From Escherichia coli (GTDB lineage: Bacteria; Pseudomonadota; Gammaproteobacteria; Enterobacterales; Enterobacteriaceae), in NCBI RefSeq assembly GCF_003334255.1, contig NZ_QOWU01000081.1: a stretch of DNA of 12,747 nucleotides; one strand, 5' to 3'. Positions 6,442-8,760 of this stretch are shown here, one piece after another. The position numbers and the translations under genes are program-made. Under the pieces are notes generated by a model. That model saw only the letters and a program-made list of their open reading frames with translations, was not told where the DNA came from and did no database searches. The stretch's first letter is position 1. Each line of letters starts with the position of its first letter.

Positions 6442-7404
6442 TCACCCCCTGAATCCCGGCGGTATTTCAGTGTCCGGTTCAGAAATGTGATTCACGCAAC
6501 GCTGCGCAGGCGAACGCCCCAGGCGGATAACCAGTTCATCCCATTTTTCCCGGAGTTTTGCCGGACTCATGATGTTTTTTACCCAGAACGAATCCCGCTG
6601 GAGACGCCCAAACATTTCACAAATTTGTCTGTGAGTTCTGCCATCCAGCATCCGCATTGTGCGAACGTCATTGGCCCATGCTGTCCAGTTGGGTTCTTTC
6701 GGTCTAGTGATCTCGCCATCATAGCTGGCCGCCTGCTCGTAAAGACTCACGATTCGTCCCCAGATCCACTGTGCGCACACCAAATCTTCCTGACTTCCCC
6801 ACTGGCGTTTTTTCGCACTGAACACAACCGCGTCAGGGTGTCGGGTTAAAAAATCCTGTTCAGCCGTCTGCGGGTCCGGTTGCGAAGCGTCCGGACAAGA
6901 AGATCTTTTATCTGACGGATCAGGTTTTAATACTGACGGATCGGGGTCAATCATCGGCCCCCTAATCGGCAGTTTTTTATCAACAGTTGATCCATCAAAA
7001 TTTGACGGGTCAACCGTTGAGGGGTCAATATTTGACGGGTCAACTGTTAACGGGTCATTTTTTGCCGGGCTAATTTTTCTTTTCGGTTTATATGACTCAC
7101 GCGCCGCCGCCGCAGCTGCTTCGAGTTTTTCCACATTAAGCCGATAGATATTGCTTACATTACGCCCACCGACCTTACGCTCTTCCTTCGTCAGCCAGCC
7201 CTCTTTCGCCAGTTCTGCAATAGCCGATTTCACTGTGGATTCACTTCTTGCACCGATCTGACGCCGGATAGTTTCAATGGCAGGCCATGACACGCCCTCG
7301 TCATTGCTGTAGTCTGCAAGACGGGCCATAACCGCCACCCTGGATAAGATCATGCCGGTGAAGGCGCACCCTTCCCAGACAAGACCATGAAGCTTGCTGC
7401 TCAT
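6442..7404 (-). CDS. Phage replication initiation protein (lambda O-like organisation: N-terminal wHTH, repeat-containing linker encoding the origin iterons, C-terminal domain)
   Basis: The ORF track starts at GTG 7419; the ATG at 7402-7404 preceded by GGGGG is more likely. Peptide repeats DPSNIDPSTVDPSNFDGSTVD are encoded by the DNA iterons at 7000-7059. Confidence 0.8.
   Translation of the reverse strand: MSSKLHGLVWEGCAFTGMILSRVAVMARLADYSNDEGVSWPAIETIRRQIGARSESTVKSAIAELAKEGWLTKEERKVGGRNVSNIYRLNVEKLEAAAAAARESYKPKRKISPAKNDPLTVDPSNIDPSTVDPSNFDGSTVDKKLPIRGPMIDPDPSVLKPDPSDKRSSCPDASQPDPQTAEQDFLTRHPDAVVFSAKKRQWGSQEDLVCAQWIWGRIVSLYEQAASYDGEITRPKEPNWTAWANDVRTMRMLDGRTHRQICEMFGRLQRDSFWVKNIMSPAKLREKWDELVIRLGRSPAQRCVNHISEPDTEIPPGFRG
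7000..7059. repeat. Iteron array (putative prophage replication origin) inside the O-like gene
   Basis: GGGTCAA recurs at 7007, 7022, 7037 and 7052 (15-bp phasing). Two 30-bp direct repeats, 7000-7029 and 7030-7059, match at 26 of 30 positions. A related palindrome TCAACAGTTGA sits at 6980-6990 and an A/T-rich stretch at 7058-7090. Confidence 0.6.
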
Positions 7405-7426
7405 AAAACCCCCGAACACCGTGCTT

Positions 7427-7852
7427 TTAGTGCATCACCACAGCATTCCCTGCCGGGCCGCCGCGATTCATCTGGTCATACAAAACAACCGCTGACGCAA
7501 CAAAATCATCGACATCCTTCACCAGCCGATCCCTCCGTTCGACGATCTCACGGTAATATTCAGAACTGTGGCTGCGCATACGGGCCACCAGCAAAGGCGG
7601 CATCGCCTTTTCGATCGCCGGTAACAGAGCCTGCATTTTTTCAACAGCATCAGGGGTGTCTTTATCCAGCCAACGGAAAATTTTCTGGGTATTACGGGCC
7701 AGGGCTTCCGGATGGCTGTCGTCGTACAGTTCCGGGAACGTCATCCCCAGTTCGAAATAAGTCCGGGCTATTTCAGCTGCAGGAACTTTCTCACCATCAG
7801 GATATGCCCAGGCATTCATCGCCATGCGGATGTGCTCATGTTTGATTTTCAT
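7427..7852 (-). CDS. YdaT-like protein (Rac prophage ydaT family, proposed CII-like regulator), 141 aa
   Basis: Position immediately downstream of and overlapping the Cro-like gene; length and N-terminus (MKIKHEHI...) are consistent with YdaT as I recall it. ATG 7850-7852. Confidence 0.6.
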   Translation of the reverse strand: MKIKHEHIRMAMNAWAYPDGEKVPAAEIARTYFELGMTFPELYDDSHPEALARNTQKIFRWLDKDTPDAVEKMQALLPAIEKAMPPLLVARMRSHSSEYYREIVERRDRLVKDVDDFVASAVVLYDQMNRGGPAGNAVVMH

Positions 7853-8159
7853 GAATCATTTGCCTCTTGATGCTTCGGGTATGATCGTTTTCGTCATTTG
7901 GTTGCTTCATCGACATATTCTGCGAATAACATGACGAGCGTCGTAAGTATGTCCAATCAACATCAGGACGAAGTTCTTCACACAGGACACCACCTTTTGT
8001 TGCTCGTTCAATCGCAGGACATCTCTCAGCAGGCAACTGACGTACCCCTTTGATCCATTGATTTACGCTTGGAGGAGATACACCTAAAAGCCTAGCCATT
8101 GCTGATTGCCCACCGACAACAGCACAAGCTCGTTTGAATGAATAGTTATCTTTTTTCAT
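7836..8159 (-). CDS. Cro-like HTH regulator (YdaS family), 107 aa
   Basis: HTH GGQSAMARLLGVSPPSVNQWIKG. The ATG at 8157-8159 is preceded by GGAG at 8-nt spacing (the track ORF begins 7 codons upstream). Divergent from the repressor gene across the operator region. Confidence 0.75.
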   Translation of the reverse strand: MKKDNYSFKRACAVVGGQSAMARLLGVSPPSVNQWIKGVRQLPAERCPAIERATKGGVLCEELRPDVDWTYLRRSSCYSQNMSMKQPNDENDHTRSIKRQMIHENQT

Positions 8160-8180
8160 CGAATGAACTCCAAAAAACAC

Positions 8181-8255
8181 ACAATAATATTAGGCTTAGC
8201 CTAATATTATTGTCAATAGGCTATGCCTAATACATCGAGAGTAGGGATTGCCTAA
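8181..8255. promoter_or_regulatory. OR-like operator/promoter region: three operator sites of type TTAGGC-N3-GCCTAA, with a leftward PR-like promoter and a candidate rightward repressor promoter
   Basis: Perfect 33-bp palindrome 8181-8213 (ACAATAATATTAGGCT T AGCCTAATATTATTGT); second site 8216-8230; third, weaker site 8241-8255. Minus-strand -35 TTGACA at 8211-8216 with a -10-like TAATAT at about 8187-8192. Confidence 0.6.
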
Positions 8256-8283
8256 CGCGATGCGCATAGGAGACTATTAAGCA

Positions 8284-8760
8284 ATGCTTAGTGGTAAAGA
8301 CTTAGGCCGAGCGATAGAGCAGGCCATTAACAAAAAAATTGCATCAGGAGCCGTCAAATCAAAGGCGGAAATCGCACGTCATTTCAAAGTCCAACCACCA
8401 TCAATCCATGACTGGATTAAGAAAGGTTCGATAAGTAAAGACAAACTTCCAGAACTATGGCGTTTCTTTTCTGATGTGGTTGGTCCAGAGCATTGGGGGC
8501 TTAACGAATACCCCATACCAACCCCATCCACTTCAGATACAAAAAGTGAACTTTTAGACATAAACAGCCTTTATCAAGCCGCCTCTGATGAAAAAAGAGC
8601 AATTGTGACTTTCCTCTTATCTGGAAATGCTACGGAGCCTGGTTGGGTTGATCATGACGTTCGCGCCTACATTGCCGCAATGGAAATGAAGGTAGCTAAC
8701 TATCTGAAAAATCAAGAATCAAAACGGAAAAGCCAGAACATCACCAAGACAGGAACTTAA
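8284..8760 (+). CDS. Prophage repressor, 158 aa (RacR-like by position and length); no LexA-type S24 autocleavage domain apparent
   Basis: N-terminal HTH-like region (KAEIARHFKVQPPSIHDWIKKG); divergent from the Cro-like gene; flanked on both sides by operator triplets. AGGAG lies 11 nt upstream of the ATG. Confidence 0.75.
   Translation: MLSGKDLGRAIEQAINKKIASGAVKSKAEIARHFKVQPPSIHDWIKKGSISKDKLPELWRFFSDVVGPEHWGLNEYPIPTPSTSDTKSELLDINSLYQAASDEKRAIVTFLLSGNATEPGWVDHDVRAYIAAMEMKVANYLKNQESKRKSQNITKTGT

What the first reader, a model, noticed from the sequence alone, without database searches (positions are those of the whole stretch)
6972..7090. Replication origin iterons inside the O-like initiator gene, with matching peptide repeats
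Four GGGTCAA-type iterons at 15-bp phasing (7007, 7022, 7037, 7052), organised as two 30-bp direct repeats, lie in the middle of the initiator gene next to an A/T-rich stretch (7058-7090). They encode the peptide repeats DPSNIDPSTVDPSNFDGSTVD in the protein linker. This is the lambda arrangement of ori within the O gene, but with a different iteron sequence, implying a distinct initiator specificity.
Basis: partly seen in the sequence, partly recalled or inferred. Interest (0 to 1): 0.4.

Follow-up and report, generated by a model that had tools for sequence, protein, structure and literature searches.

The report
Phage replication origin inside initiator gene
The repeats are real and are almost certainly the replication origin of a Rac-like lambdoid prophage of E. 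coli, written into the part of its initiator gene that codes for a floppy linker, which is the textbook phage-lambda layout with a different initiator DNA-binding domain and repeat sequence.

Summary
A 15-bp-period array (6972-7058) lies at nt 336-425 of a 963-nt initiator gene (6442-7404, minus strand). It has three exact TTGACCCnTCAA units, two degenerate units and a vestige. It is the strongest short-period signal in the window (52-53 of 75 matches; shuffles 36 ± 1.3).

The gene encodes a winged-helix N-domain (Pfam HTH_36), a disordered linker (aa 107-172), a C-domain homologous to lambda O (35% identity, E 5e-26) and a DnaT-like tail. A DnaC-like loader gene follows.

Nearly all of 64 homologues across Enterobacterales carry a 15-bp array at the same place. 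Its sequence tracks the N-domain clade, not the C-terminal type. In the linker, amino-acid identity is low (0.52) but synonymous codons are conserved (0.83, against 0.41 in the folded N-domain). Selection therefore acts on the DNA, and the peptide repeats are a by-product.

It is real but not conserved. The family-wide A/T-rich element lies on the other side (6901-6942): two GATCCGTCAG + A/T-tail repeats, in the position where lambda has its unwinding region.

No experiment exists for this origin type. It is a new member of a known kind, of modest interest.

The parts
6442..7404 (-). O-like replication initiator gene (320 aa; WP_000095675.1, annotated only as 'helix-turn-helix domain-containing protein')
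   Evidence: The ORF is seen. PHROG 391 'replication initiation O-like' matches at E 4e-115, and Pfam HTH_36 matches aa 25-71. The C-domain, aa 153-300, is 35% identical to lambda O (E 5e-26).
7093..7404 (-). Coding region of the N-terminal winged-helix DNA-binding domain (aa 1-104)
   Evidence: The AlphaFold2 model shows H-H-H-H-beta-beta-H with pLDDT 74-88. The best Foldseek matches are PadR/ArsR/MarR-type dimeric winged-helix regulators, E about 5e-3.
6874..7098 (.). Whole proposed origin: the DNA-constrained stretch that codes for the disordered linker (aa 103-177)
   Evidence: pLDDT is 30-41 for aa 107-172. Amino-acid identity is 0.52, but identical codons given identical residues reach 0.83, against 0.71 and 0.41 in the N-domain.
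6972..7058 (-). Iteron array: units of TTGACCCnTCAA+3 at exact 15-bp spacing (3 exact, 2 degenerate, 1 vestigial). It can equally be read as alternating TTGAC / GTCAA half-sites 7 and 8 bp apart.
   Evidence: E. coli variants differ by a 15-bp (one-unit) indel, and homologue lengths run 305/310/315/320 aa. The Ser codon in the units is TCA in 86%, against 15% elsewhere.
7059..7099 (.). It is a possible but unconserved unwinding region and codes for the basic KPKRKISPAKN segment.
   Evidence: It contains the least stable 30-mer of the gene, dG -33.2 against a mean of -41.8. It is not A/T-rich in group B homologues; the family mean A+T at this offset is 0.46-0.55.
6943..6962 (.). Isolated iteron-related site: a degenerate form of the 19-bp palindrome GGGGTCAAnnnTTGACCCC found here in close relatives
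   Evidence: The window has GGGGGCCGATGATTGACCCC on the coding strand. L091, L094, L096 and L144 carry the perfect palindrome at the same place. Group B carries its own version, CCCGTCAGAaTCTGGCGGG.
6901..6942 (-). Two 21-bp repeats GATCCGTCAG + A/T-rich tail, with three GATC sites (6902, 6918, 6939). This is the favoured candidate for the DNA-unwinding element.
   Evidence: The stretch is invariant among E. coli variants of 87-97% overall identity. 60 of 64 homologues, in all iteron groups, have 2-4 copies, usually 24 bp apart. GATC density is 4.4 per 100 nt, against 0.31 in the rest of the gene. It is the only A/T-rich segment conserved across the family (0.63-0.70). The Asp codon GAT is invariant at D155 and D162.
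6874..6896 (.). Short inverted repeat GTCCGG-N11-CCGGAC at the distal edge of the constrained stretch (10-bp arms in group B). It is also the point where similarity to phages with other N-domains begins.
   Evidence: Read from the sequence. Group B has GTCCGGTTGC-TGC-GCAACCCGAC. Synonymous identity is 0.77. The megablast match to mEp460 and HannyBb ends at window 6909.
6445..6507 (-). C-terminal tail of the initiator (aa 300-320, ...EPDTEIPPGFRG), DnaT-like; inferred docking motif for the DnaC-type loader
   Evidence: phmmer against PDB sequences finds DnaT C-termini (2ru8, 6aep, 9zbt), E 0.01-0.03. It is the only part shared with K-12 YdaU. The GFRG/GFRS tail recurs in many homologues.
5689..6435 (-). 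DnaC-like helicase-loader gene (YdaV-like ATPase) immediately downstream
   Evidence: PHROG 50 'DnaC-like helicase loader' matches at E 8e-82. RefSeq calls it 'ATP-binding protein'. The paper on the Sakai prophages states that Sp12 has a DnaC-type loader (PMC2669165).
8187..8216 (-). pR-like promoter whose transcript runs through cro-like (7836-8159), ydaT/cII-like (7427-7852), initiator and loader genes, and so through the origin
   Evidence: Promoter scan: TTGACA-18-TAATAT, 10 of 12 matches. The role in activating the origin is inferred from lambda.

Best explanation
The array is the initiator-binding part of the vegetative replication origin of a Rac-like lambdoid prophage. The origin sits inside the phage's own initiator gene, as in lambda.

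Shown here:
- The gene encodes a winged-helix N-domain, a disordered linker, a lambda-O-type C-domain and a DnaT-like tail.
- The linker-coding DNA (about 6874-7098) is under DNA-level selection. In transcription order it holds a 15-bp-phased array of dyad-symmetric sites (7058-6972), an isolated iteron-related site (6962-6943), two GATC-bearing A/T-rich repeats (6942-6901) and a short inverted repeat (6896-6874).
- The array sequence co-varies with the N-domain across the family.

Inferred by analogy with lambda O/ori-lambda:
- Dimers of the N-domain occupy the alternating TTGAC/GTCAA half-sites and build an O-some-like complex.
- That complex strains and opens an adjacent A/T-rich segment, most likely the conserved GATC/A-T repeats distal to the array. 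The unconserved A-rich stretch at 7059-7099 is less likely.
- The C-domain and DnaT-like tail bring in host DnaB through the phage's DnaC-like loader (5689-6435).
- Transcription from the pR-like promoter (8216-8187) passes through the origin and may activate it.

The pentapeptide repeats (DPSNI/DPSTV...) are what these DNA sites happen to encode in a tolerant linker. A 15-bp unit is 5 codons, so units can be gained or lost without breaking the frame.
For: 1. The repeat is real and far beyond chance.

2. The gene context is a lambdoid early-right operon: racR, cro-like, ydaT/cII-like, O-like, DnaC-like.

3. The C-domain is homologous to lambda O, and also to phi80 gene 15 and phage 21 O. Lambda's annotated iterons lie at gene nt 349-433 and this array at nt 336-425. 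phi80 gene 15 has a 21-bp x 3.5 array at the same place.

4. 64 non-identical full-length homologues were drawn from one genome per species. All but two or three showed a 15-bp-period array starting near nt 295-360 (weakest in the small group C).

5. Co-variation: N-domain clade A has TTGA-type units in 35 of 42, and clade B has CTGA-type units in 149 of 203. The Providencia genes of clade B and the separate Proteus/Providencia clade C have further variants. Each clade carries many different C-terminal tails.

6. Natural swap: mEp460 has a 91% identical C-domain but an unrelated N-domain. It carries GGTCAAAATGA-type repeats at about 24-bp spacing instead. Nucleotide similarity to the window stops at 6909, the edge of the proposed origin.

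7. DNA-level selection: in the linker, amino-acid identity is 0.52 and identical codon given identical residue is 0.83. In the N-domain the values are 0.71 and 0.41. The contrast holds for between-clade pairs, 0.80 against 0.37. Ser in the units is TCA in 115 of 134 distinct units, against 15% elsewhere, Fisher p about 1e-61.

8. The linker is predicted disordered, pLDDT 30-41, so it can tolerate what the DNA dictates.

9. Copy number varies by whole 15-bp units. This matches the Stx-phage origins, where extra iterons add residues to O (PMC7466680).

10. The literature states that lambda, P22 and L initiators each bind different iterons inside their own coding regions (PMC8022706).
Against: - There is no experimental evidence for this origin type. 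The Sakai prophage Sp12 carries the gene at 99.2% identity. It did not circularise or replicate, though its integrase and repressor are defective, so the result is uninformative (PMC2669165).
- The A/T-rich segments are only 70-77% A+T, weaker than lambda's 83%. Which side opens is not known.
- A 15-bp spacing (about 1.4 helical turns) puts neighbouring sites on nearly opposite faces. That differs from lambda and from iteron plasmids, so an O-some-like wrapped complex is an assumption.
- The array region also folds into a stable hairpin as a single strand (z -6.4; family median about -4), so a role for secondary structure cannot be excluded.
- Synonymous-site counts use related sequences and an alignment that is ambiguous inside the repeats.
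Confidence: 0.8

Rival explanations
1. The sites do bind the initiator, but their job is control rather than initiation. They would act in autoregulation of the operon, titration or 'handcuffing' of initiator, or exclusion of related phages. The true origin would lie elsewhere.
For: Iterons in plasmids do both jobs (my own knowledge of F, P1 and R6K). Ectopic ori-lambda copies inhibit lambda (PMC4488673 and PMC3349717, listed). The co-variation data show a link to the N-domain, not what binding achieves.
Against: No other repeat array or copy of the motif exists in the 12.7-kb window. The layout of array, then A/T-rich repeats, then inverted repeat, at the lambda position inside the gene, matches an origin and not an operator. 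Initiator and loader genes are adjacent. In lambda the same sites are the origin.
Confidence: 0.08
2. The repeats are selected at the protein level only. They would form a pentapeptide-repeat linker (DPSxx) needed for spacing or flexibility, with no function as DNA.
For: The repeats are in frame and lie in a linker. D-x-S recurs in most homologues.
Against: Residues vary while codons do not: linker amino-acid identity is 0.52, against synonymous identity 0.83. Ser is almost always TCA out of six possible codons. Units are dyad-symmetric as DNA, and some are flipped (CCC to GGG), which changes the peptide (P to G) but keeps the DNA site. mEp460, with the same C-domain, has unrelated repeats.
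Confidence: 0.04
3. The conserved linker DNA is kept as a shared 'linker sequence' that promotes homologous recombination between modules (mosaic junction), not as an origin.
For: Similarity to phages with other N-domains begins right at the edge of the region, window 6909. Lambda's record marks hybrid junctions at 39157 and 39165, just after its iterons. The GATC/A-T repeats are shared across iteron groups.
Against: A recombination linker would not need exact 15-bp phasing or dyad symmetry. It would also not co-vary with the N-domain clade. Junctions at origin edges are expected anyway, because N-domain and origin must travel together.
Confidence: 0.04
4. The selected feature is a hairpin in the mRNA or in single-stranded DNA, for example to pause translation, protect the message or prime synthesis.
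For: The stretch 6970-7075 (minus strand) folds at -32.9 kcal/mol, z -6.4. Array regions of homologues have a median z of about -4.
Against: Any array of dyad-symmetric sites folds well, so this is expected as a by-product. The long hairpin of the window depends on one flipped unit and is not a fixed structure across the family, where z ranges from -0.7 to -7.3. There is no Rfam family match: the best is a chance miRNA hit at 21 bits against a gathering score of 58.
Confidence: 0.03

Closest known systems
Phage lambda O protein and ori-lambda (also the Stx-phage O/ori variants)
   Same: The origin lies inside the initiator gene in the linker-coding part, at the same distance from the start codon. 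The repeats are dyad-symmetric. An A/T-rich segment and then an inverted repeat lie distal to them. The C-terminal domain is homologous. The operon context is the same (cro, cII-like, O, loader). Extra repeats lengthen the protein (PMC7466680).
   Different: The N-terminal DNA-binding domain is not detectably related: Pfam finds HTH_36 and BLAST finds no N-terminal match. Units are about 12 bp at strict 15-bp phasing, rather than 19-bp iterons at 20-24 bp. The A/T-rich element is made of GATC-bearing repeats. The partner is a DnaC-type loader, not lambda P. The protein has an extra DnaT-like tail.
Other lambdoid initiators with their own in-gene iterons: phi80 gene 15, P22 gene 18, phage L gene 18, mEp460
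   Same: The same principle applies: each initiator type carries its own repeats in its own coding region (PMC8022706; phi80 21-bp x 3.5; mEp460 repeats). mEp460 shares the C-domain at 91%.
   Different: The N-domain families, repeat sequences and periods differ (21-24 bp, or 11-bp repeats in L).
Shigella phages SfII and SfIV, and Stx2e phage phiP27 (closest sequenced phages for the N-domain)
   Same: N-domain identity is 66% (SfII, SfIV) and 51% (phiP27). SfII and SfIV match at the identity level of clade B, whose genomic representatives carry TCTGACGCnTCAAAA arrays.
   Different: The iteron subtype differs. I did not read the arrays of these phage records themselves, and I found no paper describing their origins.
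K-12 Rac prophage replication module (ydaU-ydaV, oriJ)
   Same: The prophage type and gene order are the same: racR, ydaS, ydaT, initiator, DnaC-like ydaV. The initiators share the C-terminal tail IPPGFRG.
   Different: YdaU is a DUF1376 protein with no other similarity. No comparable tandem array was found in ydaU. The window's origin is therefore not oriJ of K-12.
Iteron plasmids (F RepE, R6K pi, pSC101 RepA, P1 RepA) and oriC
   Same: Winged-helix initiators bind tandem repeats next to an A/T-rich unwinding region. GATC clusters occur in the unwinding region, as in the oriC 13-mers and the P1 origin (my own knowledge; P1's need for methylated DNA is cited as ref. 34 of PMC2865523).
   Different: There is no Rep_3-type fold or Pfam match. 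The phasing is 15 bp rather than about 22 bp. The origin lies inside the coding region. DnaA-box-like matches are not above chance.

Membership tests
Lambda-type origin embedded in an O-type initiator gene | The initiator has the lambda O C-terminal domain | tested here: met
   BLASTP aligns window aa 153-300 with lambda O aa 145-277 at 35% identity, E 5e-26. tblastn also finds phi80 gene 15, phage 21 O and HK225.
Lambda-type origin embedded in an O-type initiator gene | The N-terminal origin-binding domain belongs to the lambda O family | tested here: not met
   There is no N-terminal BLAST alignment to lambda O. Pfam reports only HTH_36, plus a weak DnaD_N match. The protein works like O but is not an O-family DNA-binding domain.
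Lambda-type origin embedded in an O-type initiator gene | Three or more tandem, dyad-symmetric repeats in the mid-gene linker-coding region | tested here: met
   The position is nt 336-425, against lambda's 349-433. The linker is predicted disordered.
Lambda-type origin embedded in an O-type initiator gene | An A/T-rich unwinding region next to the repeats, on the distal side | tested here: inconclusive
   The stretch 6901-6942 is 70% A+T. It is the only A/T-rich segment conserved across the family. It is weaker than lambda's 83%, and a second A-rich stretch lies on the other side. Unwinding itself was not tested.
Lambda-type origin embedded in an O-type initiator gene | The repeats co-vary with the initiator's DNA-binding domain | tested here: met
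   See (clades A, B and C) and the mEp460 swap.
Lambda-type origin embedded in an O-type initiator gene | The initiator binds the repeats, and the fragment replicates in an initiator-dependent way | not testable with these tools
   This needs EMSA or footprinting and a replication assay. Sakai Sp12 data are uninformative (PMC2669165).
Lambda-type origin embedded in an O-type initiator gene | A lambda P-type helicase loader as partner | tested here: not met
   The downstream gene matches PHROG 50 'DnaC-like helicase loader', E 8e-82. PMC2669165 classes Sp12 as DnaC-type.
Iteron plasmid replicons (Rep_3 / RepA-pi-RepE type) | Rep_3-family initiator with tandem winged-helix domains | tested here: not met
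   There is no Rep_3 match in Pfam. The model shows a single winged-helix domain.
Iteron plasmid replicons (Rep_3 / RepA-pi-RepE type) | Iterons of about 17-22 bp phased at about two helical turns, with DnaA boxes in the origin | tested here: not met
   The period is 15 bp. DnaA-box-like matches number 6, against 3.2 expected, which is not significant.
Rac prophage oriJ / YdaU module of E. coli K-12 | The initiator is homologous to YdaU (DUF1376) | tested here: not met
   Only the last 19 residues align. Tandem Repeats Finder found no comparable array in ydaU.

The most novel reading that the evidence does not exclude
The GATC-bearing A/T-rich repeats (GATCC-R-TCAG + A/T tail, 2-4 copies, usually 24 bp apart; window 6901-6942) are shared unchanged by initiator clades with different iterons. 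They may be a distinct, undescribed origin module: an unwinding element whose opening or re-use is gated by host Dam methylation and SeqA, as at the oriC 13-mers and the P1 origin. That would tie firing of a very common class of enterobacterial prophage origins to the host methylation cycle. It would also make the element a portable 'host interface' separable from the initiator-specific iterons.
Probability: 0.2. Interest if true: 0.5.

Novelty: new member of a known kind. Interest (0 to 1): 0.3.

Why it matters
This initiator-and-origin module is very common. Its N-terminal half and array occur in 1521 of 5426 complete E. coli genomes, including O157 Sakai prophage Sp12, and relatives occur in many Enterobacterales genera. 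RefSeq nonetheless labels the gene only 'helix-turn-helix domain-containing protein', and no origin is annotated.

Knowing the origin and its specificity groups would help in three ways:
- annotating prophage replication modules;
- predicting which co-resident prophages can cross-activate or interfere with each other;
- designing lambda-dv-like vectors with new incompatibility types.

The family is also a clean natural example of DNA-level selection overriding protein-level selection inside a coding region. None of this would surprise a phage replication specialist.

Tried and rejected
- Rfam scan of 6000-8400: only a chance miRNA match at 21 bits, against a gathering score of 58. No RNA family is present.
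- DnaA boxes: 6 one-mismatch matches in the window against 3.2 expected, so no DnaA role can be claimed. TTTTCCACA at 7127-7135 is not conserved in clade A relatives.
- K-12 Rac ydaU as the same origin (oriJ): rejected. It has a different N-domain family and no comparable array.
- Literature searches for oriJ/Rac, ydaU/ydaV, SfII/SfIV origins and prophage iterons with DnaC: no description of this iteron type in the held library. The older subscription literature (Grosschedl & Hobom 1979; Weigel & Seitz 2006) is not searchable here, so 'not described' is not proven.
- Sakai Sp12 as an experimental test: the paper reports no circularisation or replication. Sp12 has defective integrase and repressor, so this says nothing about the origin.
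- Plasmid records as evidence of autonomous replication: one 15,977-bp circular record consists only of this early-right segment. Its initiator gene is frameshifted and the assembly may be unreliable, so I did not use it as evidence.
- First protein search with the 104-aa N-domain returned only short fragments. These served only to seed the genome scan.
- Foldseek of the full model gave only generic winged-helix regulators at E about 5e-3, with no specific initiator fold match.
- Hairpin potential was tested across the family and judged a by-product of dyad sites.
Full report
**1. What is there**

The finding lies in a minus-strand ORF, 6442-7404 (320 aa from the ATG at 7404). On the coding strand the region reads ATGACCCGTTAAcag TTGACCCGTCAAata TTGACCCCTCAAcgg TTGACCCGTCAAatt TTGATGGATCAActg TTGATAAAAAAC. 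That is three exact TTGACCCnTCAA units (7043-7032, 7028-7017, 7013-7002), one degenerate unit on each side, and a vestige. All sit at exactly 15-bp spacing.

Tandem Repeats Finder reports period 15 (5.2 copies) and period 30 (2.3-2.5 copies, 82-84% matches, score up to 101). The repeat finder gives five copies at 15, 15, 15, 15.

Self-matches at lag 15/30 are 52-53 of 75. In 200 shuffles of the whole window the mean is 36.0, sd 1.3, maximum 42. This is the strongest periodic signal in the window for lags 9-40. The exact motif occurs nowhere else in the 12.7 kb.

The peptide DPLTV-DPSNI-DPSTV-DPSNF-DGSTV-D is as stated.

**2. Context**

The window is the early region of a Rac-like lambdoid prophage of E. 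coli. Near-identical records annotate these genes:

- racR (8284-8760, +);
- a cro-like gene (7836-8159, -);
- a YdaT/cII-like gene (7427-7852, -);
- this gene (WP_000095675.1, 'helix-turn-helix domain-containing protein');
- an 'ATP-binding protein' (5689-6435, -).

PHROGs calls the last two 'replication initiation O-like' (E 4e-115) and 'DnaC-like helicase loader' (E 8e-82). A pR-like promoter lies at 8216-8187.

The 520 bases that include the array and N-domain occur in 1521 of 5426 complete E. coli genomes, 1371 of them at 99% identity or more. They include O157 Sakai prophage Sp12 at 99.2%.

K-12's own Rac prophage has a different initiator at this position. YdaU is a DUF1376 protein that shares only the last 19 residues (...IPPGFRG), and Tandem Repeats Finder found no comparable array in it.

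**3. The protein**

- Pfam finds only HTH_36 (aa 25-71).
- AlphaFold2 with a 40-sequence alignment gives four parts:
  - a winged-helix domain, aa 1-104, pLDDT 74-88;
  - a disordered segment, aa 107-172, pLDDT 30-41;
  - a confident helical domain, aa 178-297;
  - a disordered tail.
- Foldseek matches the N-domain to dimeric PadR/ArsR/MarR-type winged-helix regulators at weak E-values (about 5e-3).
- The C-domain (aa 153-300) is 35% identical to lambda O aa 145-277, E 5e-26. It also matches phi80 gene 15, phage 21 O and others.
- The N-domain does not align with lambda O.
- The last 21 residues resemble the C-terminus of DnaT (PDB 2ru8, 6aep, 9zbt; E 0.01-0.03).

**4. Position relative to lambda**

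Lambda's record annotates its four iterons at 39034-39118, which is nt 349-433 of gene O. The array here is at nt 336-425. phi80 gene 15 has a 21-bp x 3.5 array at the equivalent place.

**5. Comparative evidence**

A scan of one genome per species with an N-domain alignment returned 71 loci from many Enterobacterales genera, with N-domain identity of 52-100%. A few are contigs of MAGs or isolates labelled as other taxa. Of the 71, 64 are full-length and non-identical.

In Tandem Repeats Finder, all but two or three showed a 15-bp-period array starting at about nt 295-360. The arrays of the small clade C are short.

The unit sequence follows the N-domain clade:

- Clade A (MSSKLHGLVWEG..., includes the window) has TTGA(C/G)3-4TCAA. 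TTGA-type units are 35 of 42.
- Clade B (MSTKLTGYVWDA / MSVKLSSYVWDG) has TCTGACGCnTCAAAA. CTGA-type units are 149 of 203.
- The Providencia genes of clade B, and the separate Proteus/Providencia clade C, have further variants.

Within each clade the C-terminal tails are many and different: GFRG, GFRS, WNSPEAWENTL...GEAAA and others. The array therefore travels with the DNA-binding domain, not with the rest of the protein.

Phage mEp460 is a natural swap. Its C-domain is 91% identical, its N-domain is unrelated, and its mid-gene region carries GGTCAAAATGA-type repeats about 24 bp apart, followed by an A/T-rich run. Nucleotide similarity between mEp460 and the window stops at window 6909, the distal edge of the region described below.

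**6. Selection acts on the DNA**

I aligned the 64 proteins and threaded the codons back onto the alignment.

| Region | Amino-acid identity | Identical codon given identical residue |
|---|---|---|
| N-domain, residues 1-98 | 0.71 | 0.41 |
| Linker, residues 103-177 | 0.52 | 0.83 |
| Start of C-domain | 0.39 | 0.51 |

For pairs taken only between clades A and B, the codon values are 0.37 (N-domain) and 0.80 (linker).

Units were picked by peptide pattern alone ([DE]xS), so that synonymous sites were not pre-selected. In them Ser is TCA in 115 of 134 distinct units (86%), against 15% elsewhere in the same genes, Fisher p about 1e-61. Asp is GAC in 64%, against 40% elsewhere.

Some units have the centre flipped (CCCC to GGGG). 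This changes Pro to Gly but keeps the TTGA...TCAA frame.

E. coli variants differ by a clean 15-bp indel, and homologue lengths step by five residues: 305, 310, 315, 320.

These counts use related sequences, and the alignment is ambiguous within the repeats. The contrast is nevertheless large and consistent. The peptide repeats are best seen as a by-product of DNA sites placed in a tolerant, disordered linker.

**7. The rest of the origin, and a correction**

The DNA-constrained stretch runs from about 7098 to 6874. Distal to the array, in the direction of transcription, lie three further elements.

(a) An isolated iteron-related site, 6962-6943. In close relatives it is a perfect 19-bp palindrome, GGGGTCAAnnnTTGACCCC. 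Clade B has its own version, CCCGTCAGAaTCTGGCGGG.

(b) Two 21-bp repeats, GATCCGTCAGTATTAAAACCT and GATCCGTCAGATAAAAGATCT (6942-6901).
- They are invariant among E. coli variants that are otherwise 87-97% identical.
- 60 of 64 homologues, in all iteron clades, have 2-4 copies, usually 24 bp apart.
- GATC density is 4.4 per 100 nt, against 0.31 in the rest of the gene.
- Their three GATC sites form the densest GATC cluster in the whole window.
- The Asp codons D155 and D162 are GAT in all aligned sequences that have Asp there.
- This is the only segment that is A/T-rich across the family, 0.63-0.70, flanked by G/C-rich DNA.

(c) A short inverted repeat, 6896-6874, which has 10-bp arms in clade B.

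Iterons, then an A/T-rich region, then an inverted repeat: this is the order in ori-lambda (for the lambda sequence; PMC7466680).

It overlaps the least stable 30-mer of the gene. However, it lies on the promoter-proximal side of the array and is not A/T-rich in clade B. I therefore favour 6901-6942 as the unwinding element, without being able to exclude the other side.

**8. Mechanism**

Shown:
- the domain architecture;
- the anatomy of the DNA;
- DNA-level constraint;
- co-variation of the array with the N-domain;
- homology of the C-domain to lambda O;
- the adjacent DnaC-like loader.

Inferred from lambda and related systems:
- N-domain dimers bind the alternating TTGAC/GTCAA half-sites.
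- The complex opens the neighbouring A/T-rich DNA.
- The C-domain and DnaT-like tail recruit DnaB through the DnaC-like protein.
- Transcription from the pR-like promoter crosses and may activate the origin.

The bound register is unresolved. It could be TTGAC-N2-GTCAA or GTCAA-N3-TTGAC. The isolated palindromes of both clades resemble the second.

The 15-bp phasing (about 1.4 turns) differs from lambda and from iteron plasmids. The geometry of the complex may therefore differ.

**9. Rivals**

- *Control sites rather than origin.* This cannot be excluded without an assay. No other array exists in the window, and the layout is that of an origin.
- *Protein-only repeats.* The codon data argue strongly against this.
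- *Recombination linker.* This does not explain the phasing, the dyad symmetry or the co-variation.
- *Hairpin.* The region folds well (z -6.4; family median about -4), as any array of dyad sites would. There is no Rfam match.

**10. Known or new**

It is textbook knowledge that lambdoid initiators carry their own iterons inside their coding regions. PMC8022706 states it for lambda, P22 and L, and PMC7466680 for lambda and Stx phages.

I found no description of this particular initiator and iteron type in the searchable library. The one experimental paper touching it reports that Sp12 does not replicate, but Sp12's integrase and repressor are defective (PMC2669165). Older subscription literature could not be searched.

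I rate it a new member of a known kind. It works like lambda O/ori-lambda. It is not a member of the lambda O N-domain family, and it uses a DnaC-type loader rather than a P-type loader.

**Verdict.** Confidence that this is the origin's initiator-binding array is about 0.8. Interest is 0.3.

Noticed in passing
window 6445-6507 (aa 300-320 of the initiator): The C-terminal tail ...EPDTEIPPGFRG resembles the C-terminus of the host primosomal protein DnaT (PDB 2ru8, 6aep, 9zbt; E 0.01-0.03). It is the only part shared with the otherwise unrelated K-12 YdaU. Both genes are followed by a DnaC-like gene, as dnaT is followed by dnaC (own knowledge). The tail may be a portable docking motif for DnaC-type loaders.
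   Followed up: partly
window 8181-8216: A 33-bp near-perfect palindrome, ACAATAATATTAGGCTAAGCCTAATATTATTGT, overlaps the pR-like promoter between racR and the cro-like gene. It is probably the immunity operator.
   Followed up: no
L163 (NZ_CP148542.1, whole record, 15,977 bp): This circular 'plasmid' of an E. coli dog isolate consists only of the early-right segment of such a prophage (repressor, cro, initiator, DnaC-like, nin region, Q, lysis), and PLSDB lists no replicon type for it. It could be a lambda-dv-like derivative driven by this origin. It could also be an assembly artefact: the initiator and ydaT ORFs are broken by frameshifts.
   Followed up: partly
L160 860-885 (lambda 39159-39184) versus L098-L148 at about gene nt 400-430: The inverted repeat to the right of lambda's A/T-rich region (TCGTCAGAGAATTCTGGCGA) resembles the clade B palindrome CCGTCAGAATCTGGCGG, which sits between the array and the GATC repeats. 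This is either a remnant of common ancestry of the origins or coincidence.
   Followed up: partly
L089, L090, L101, L122: Contigs labelled as Collinsella and Lachnospiraceae MAGs (98-100% identical to the E. coli gene), Martelella alba and Chryseobacterium sp. carry this enterobacterial prophage gene. The likely cause is binning or culture contamination rather than host range.
   Followed up: no
window 7127-7135 and 6977-6985: There are two one-mismatch DnaA-box-like sequences, TTTTCCACA and TTATCAACA, one on each side of the array. The count in the window is not above chance, and the first is not conserved in clade A relatives.
   Followed up: partly
window 3616-4281 and 3223-3378: The prophage carries a QueH-like epoxyqueuosine reductase gene and a hokD toxin gene among its nin-region genes.
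   Followed up: no
window 12498-12559 and 1768-1810: Two other tandem arrays are present: 21 bp x 3.0 (ACGAGCCAAAAAGCGAAACAAA, 74% matches, inside the exonuclease gene) and 20 bp x 2.1. I did not examine them.
   Followed up: no
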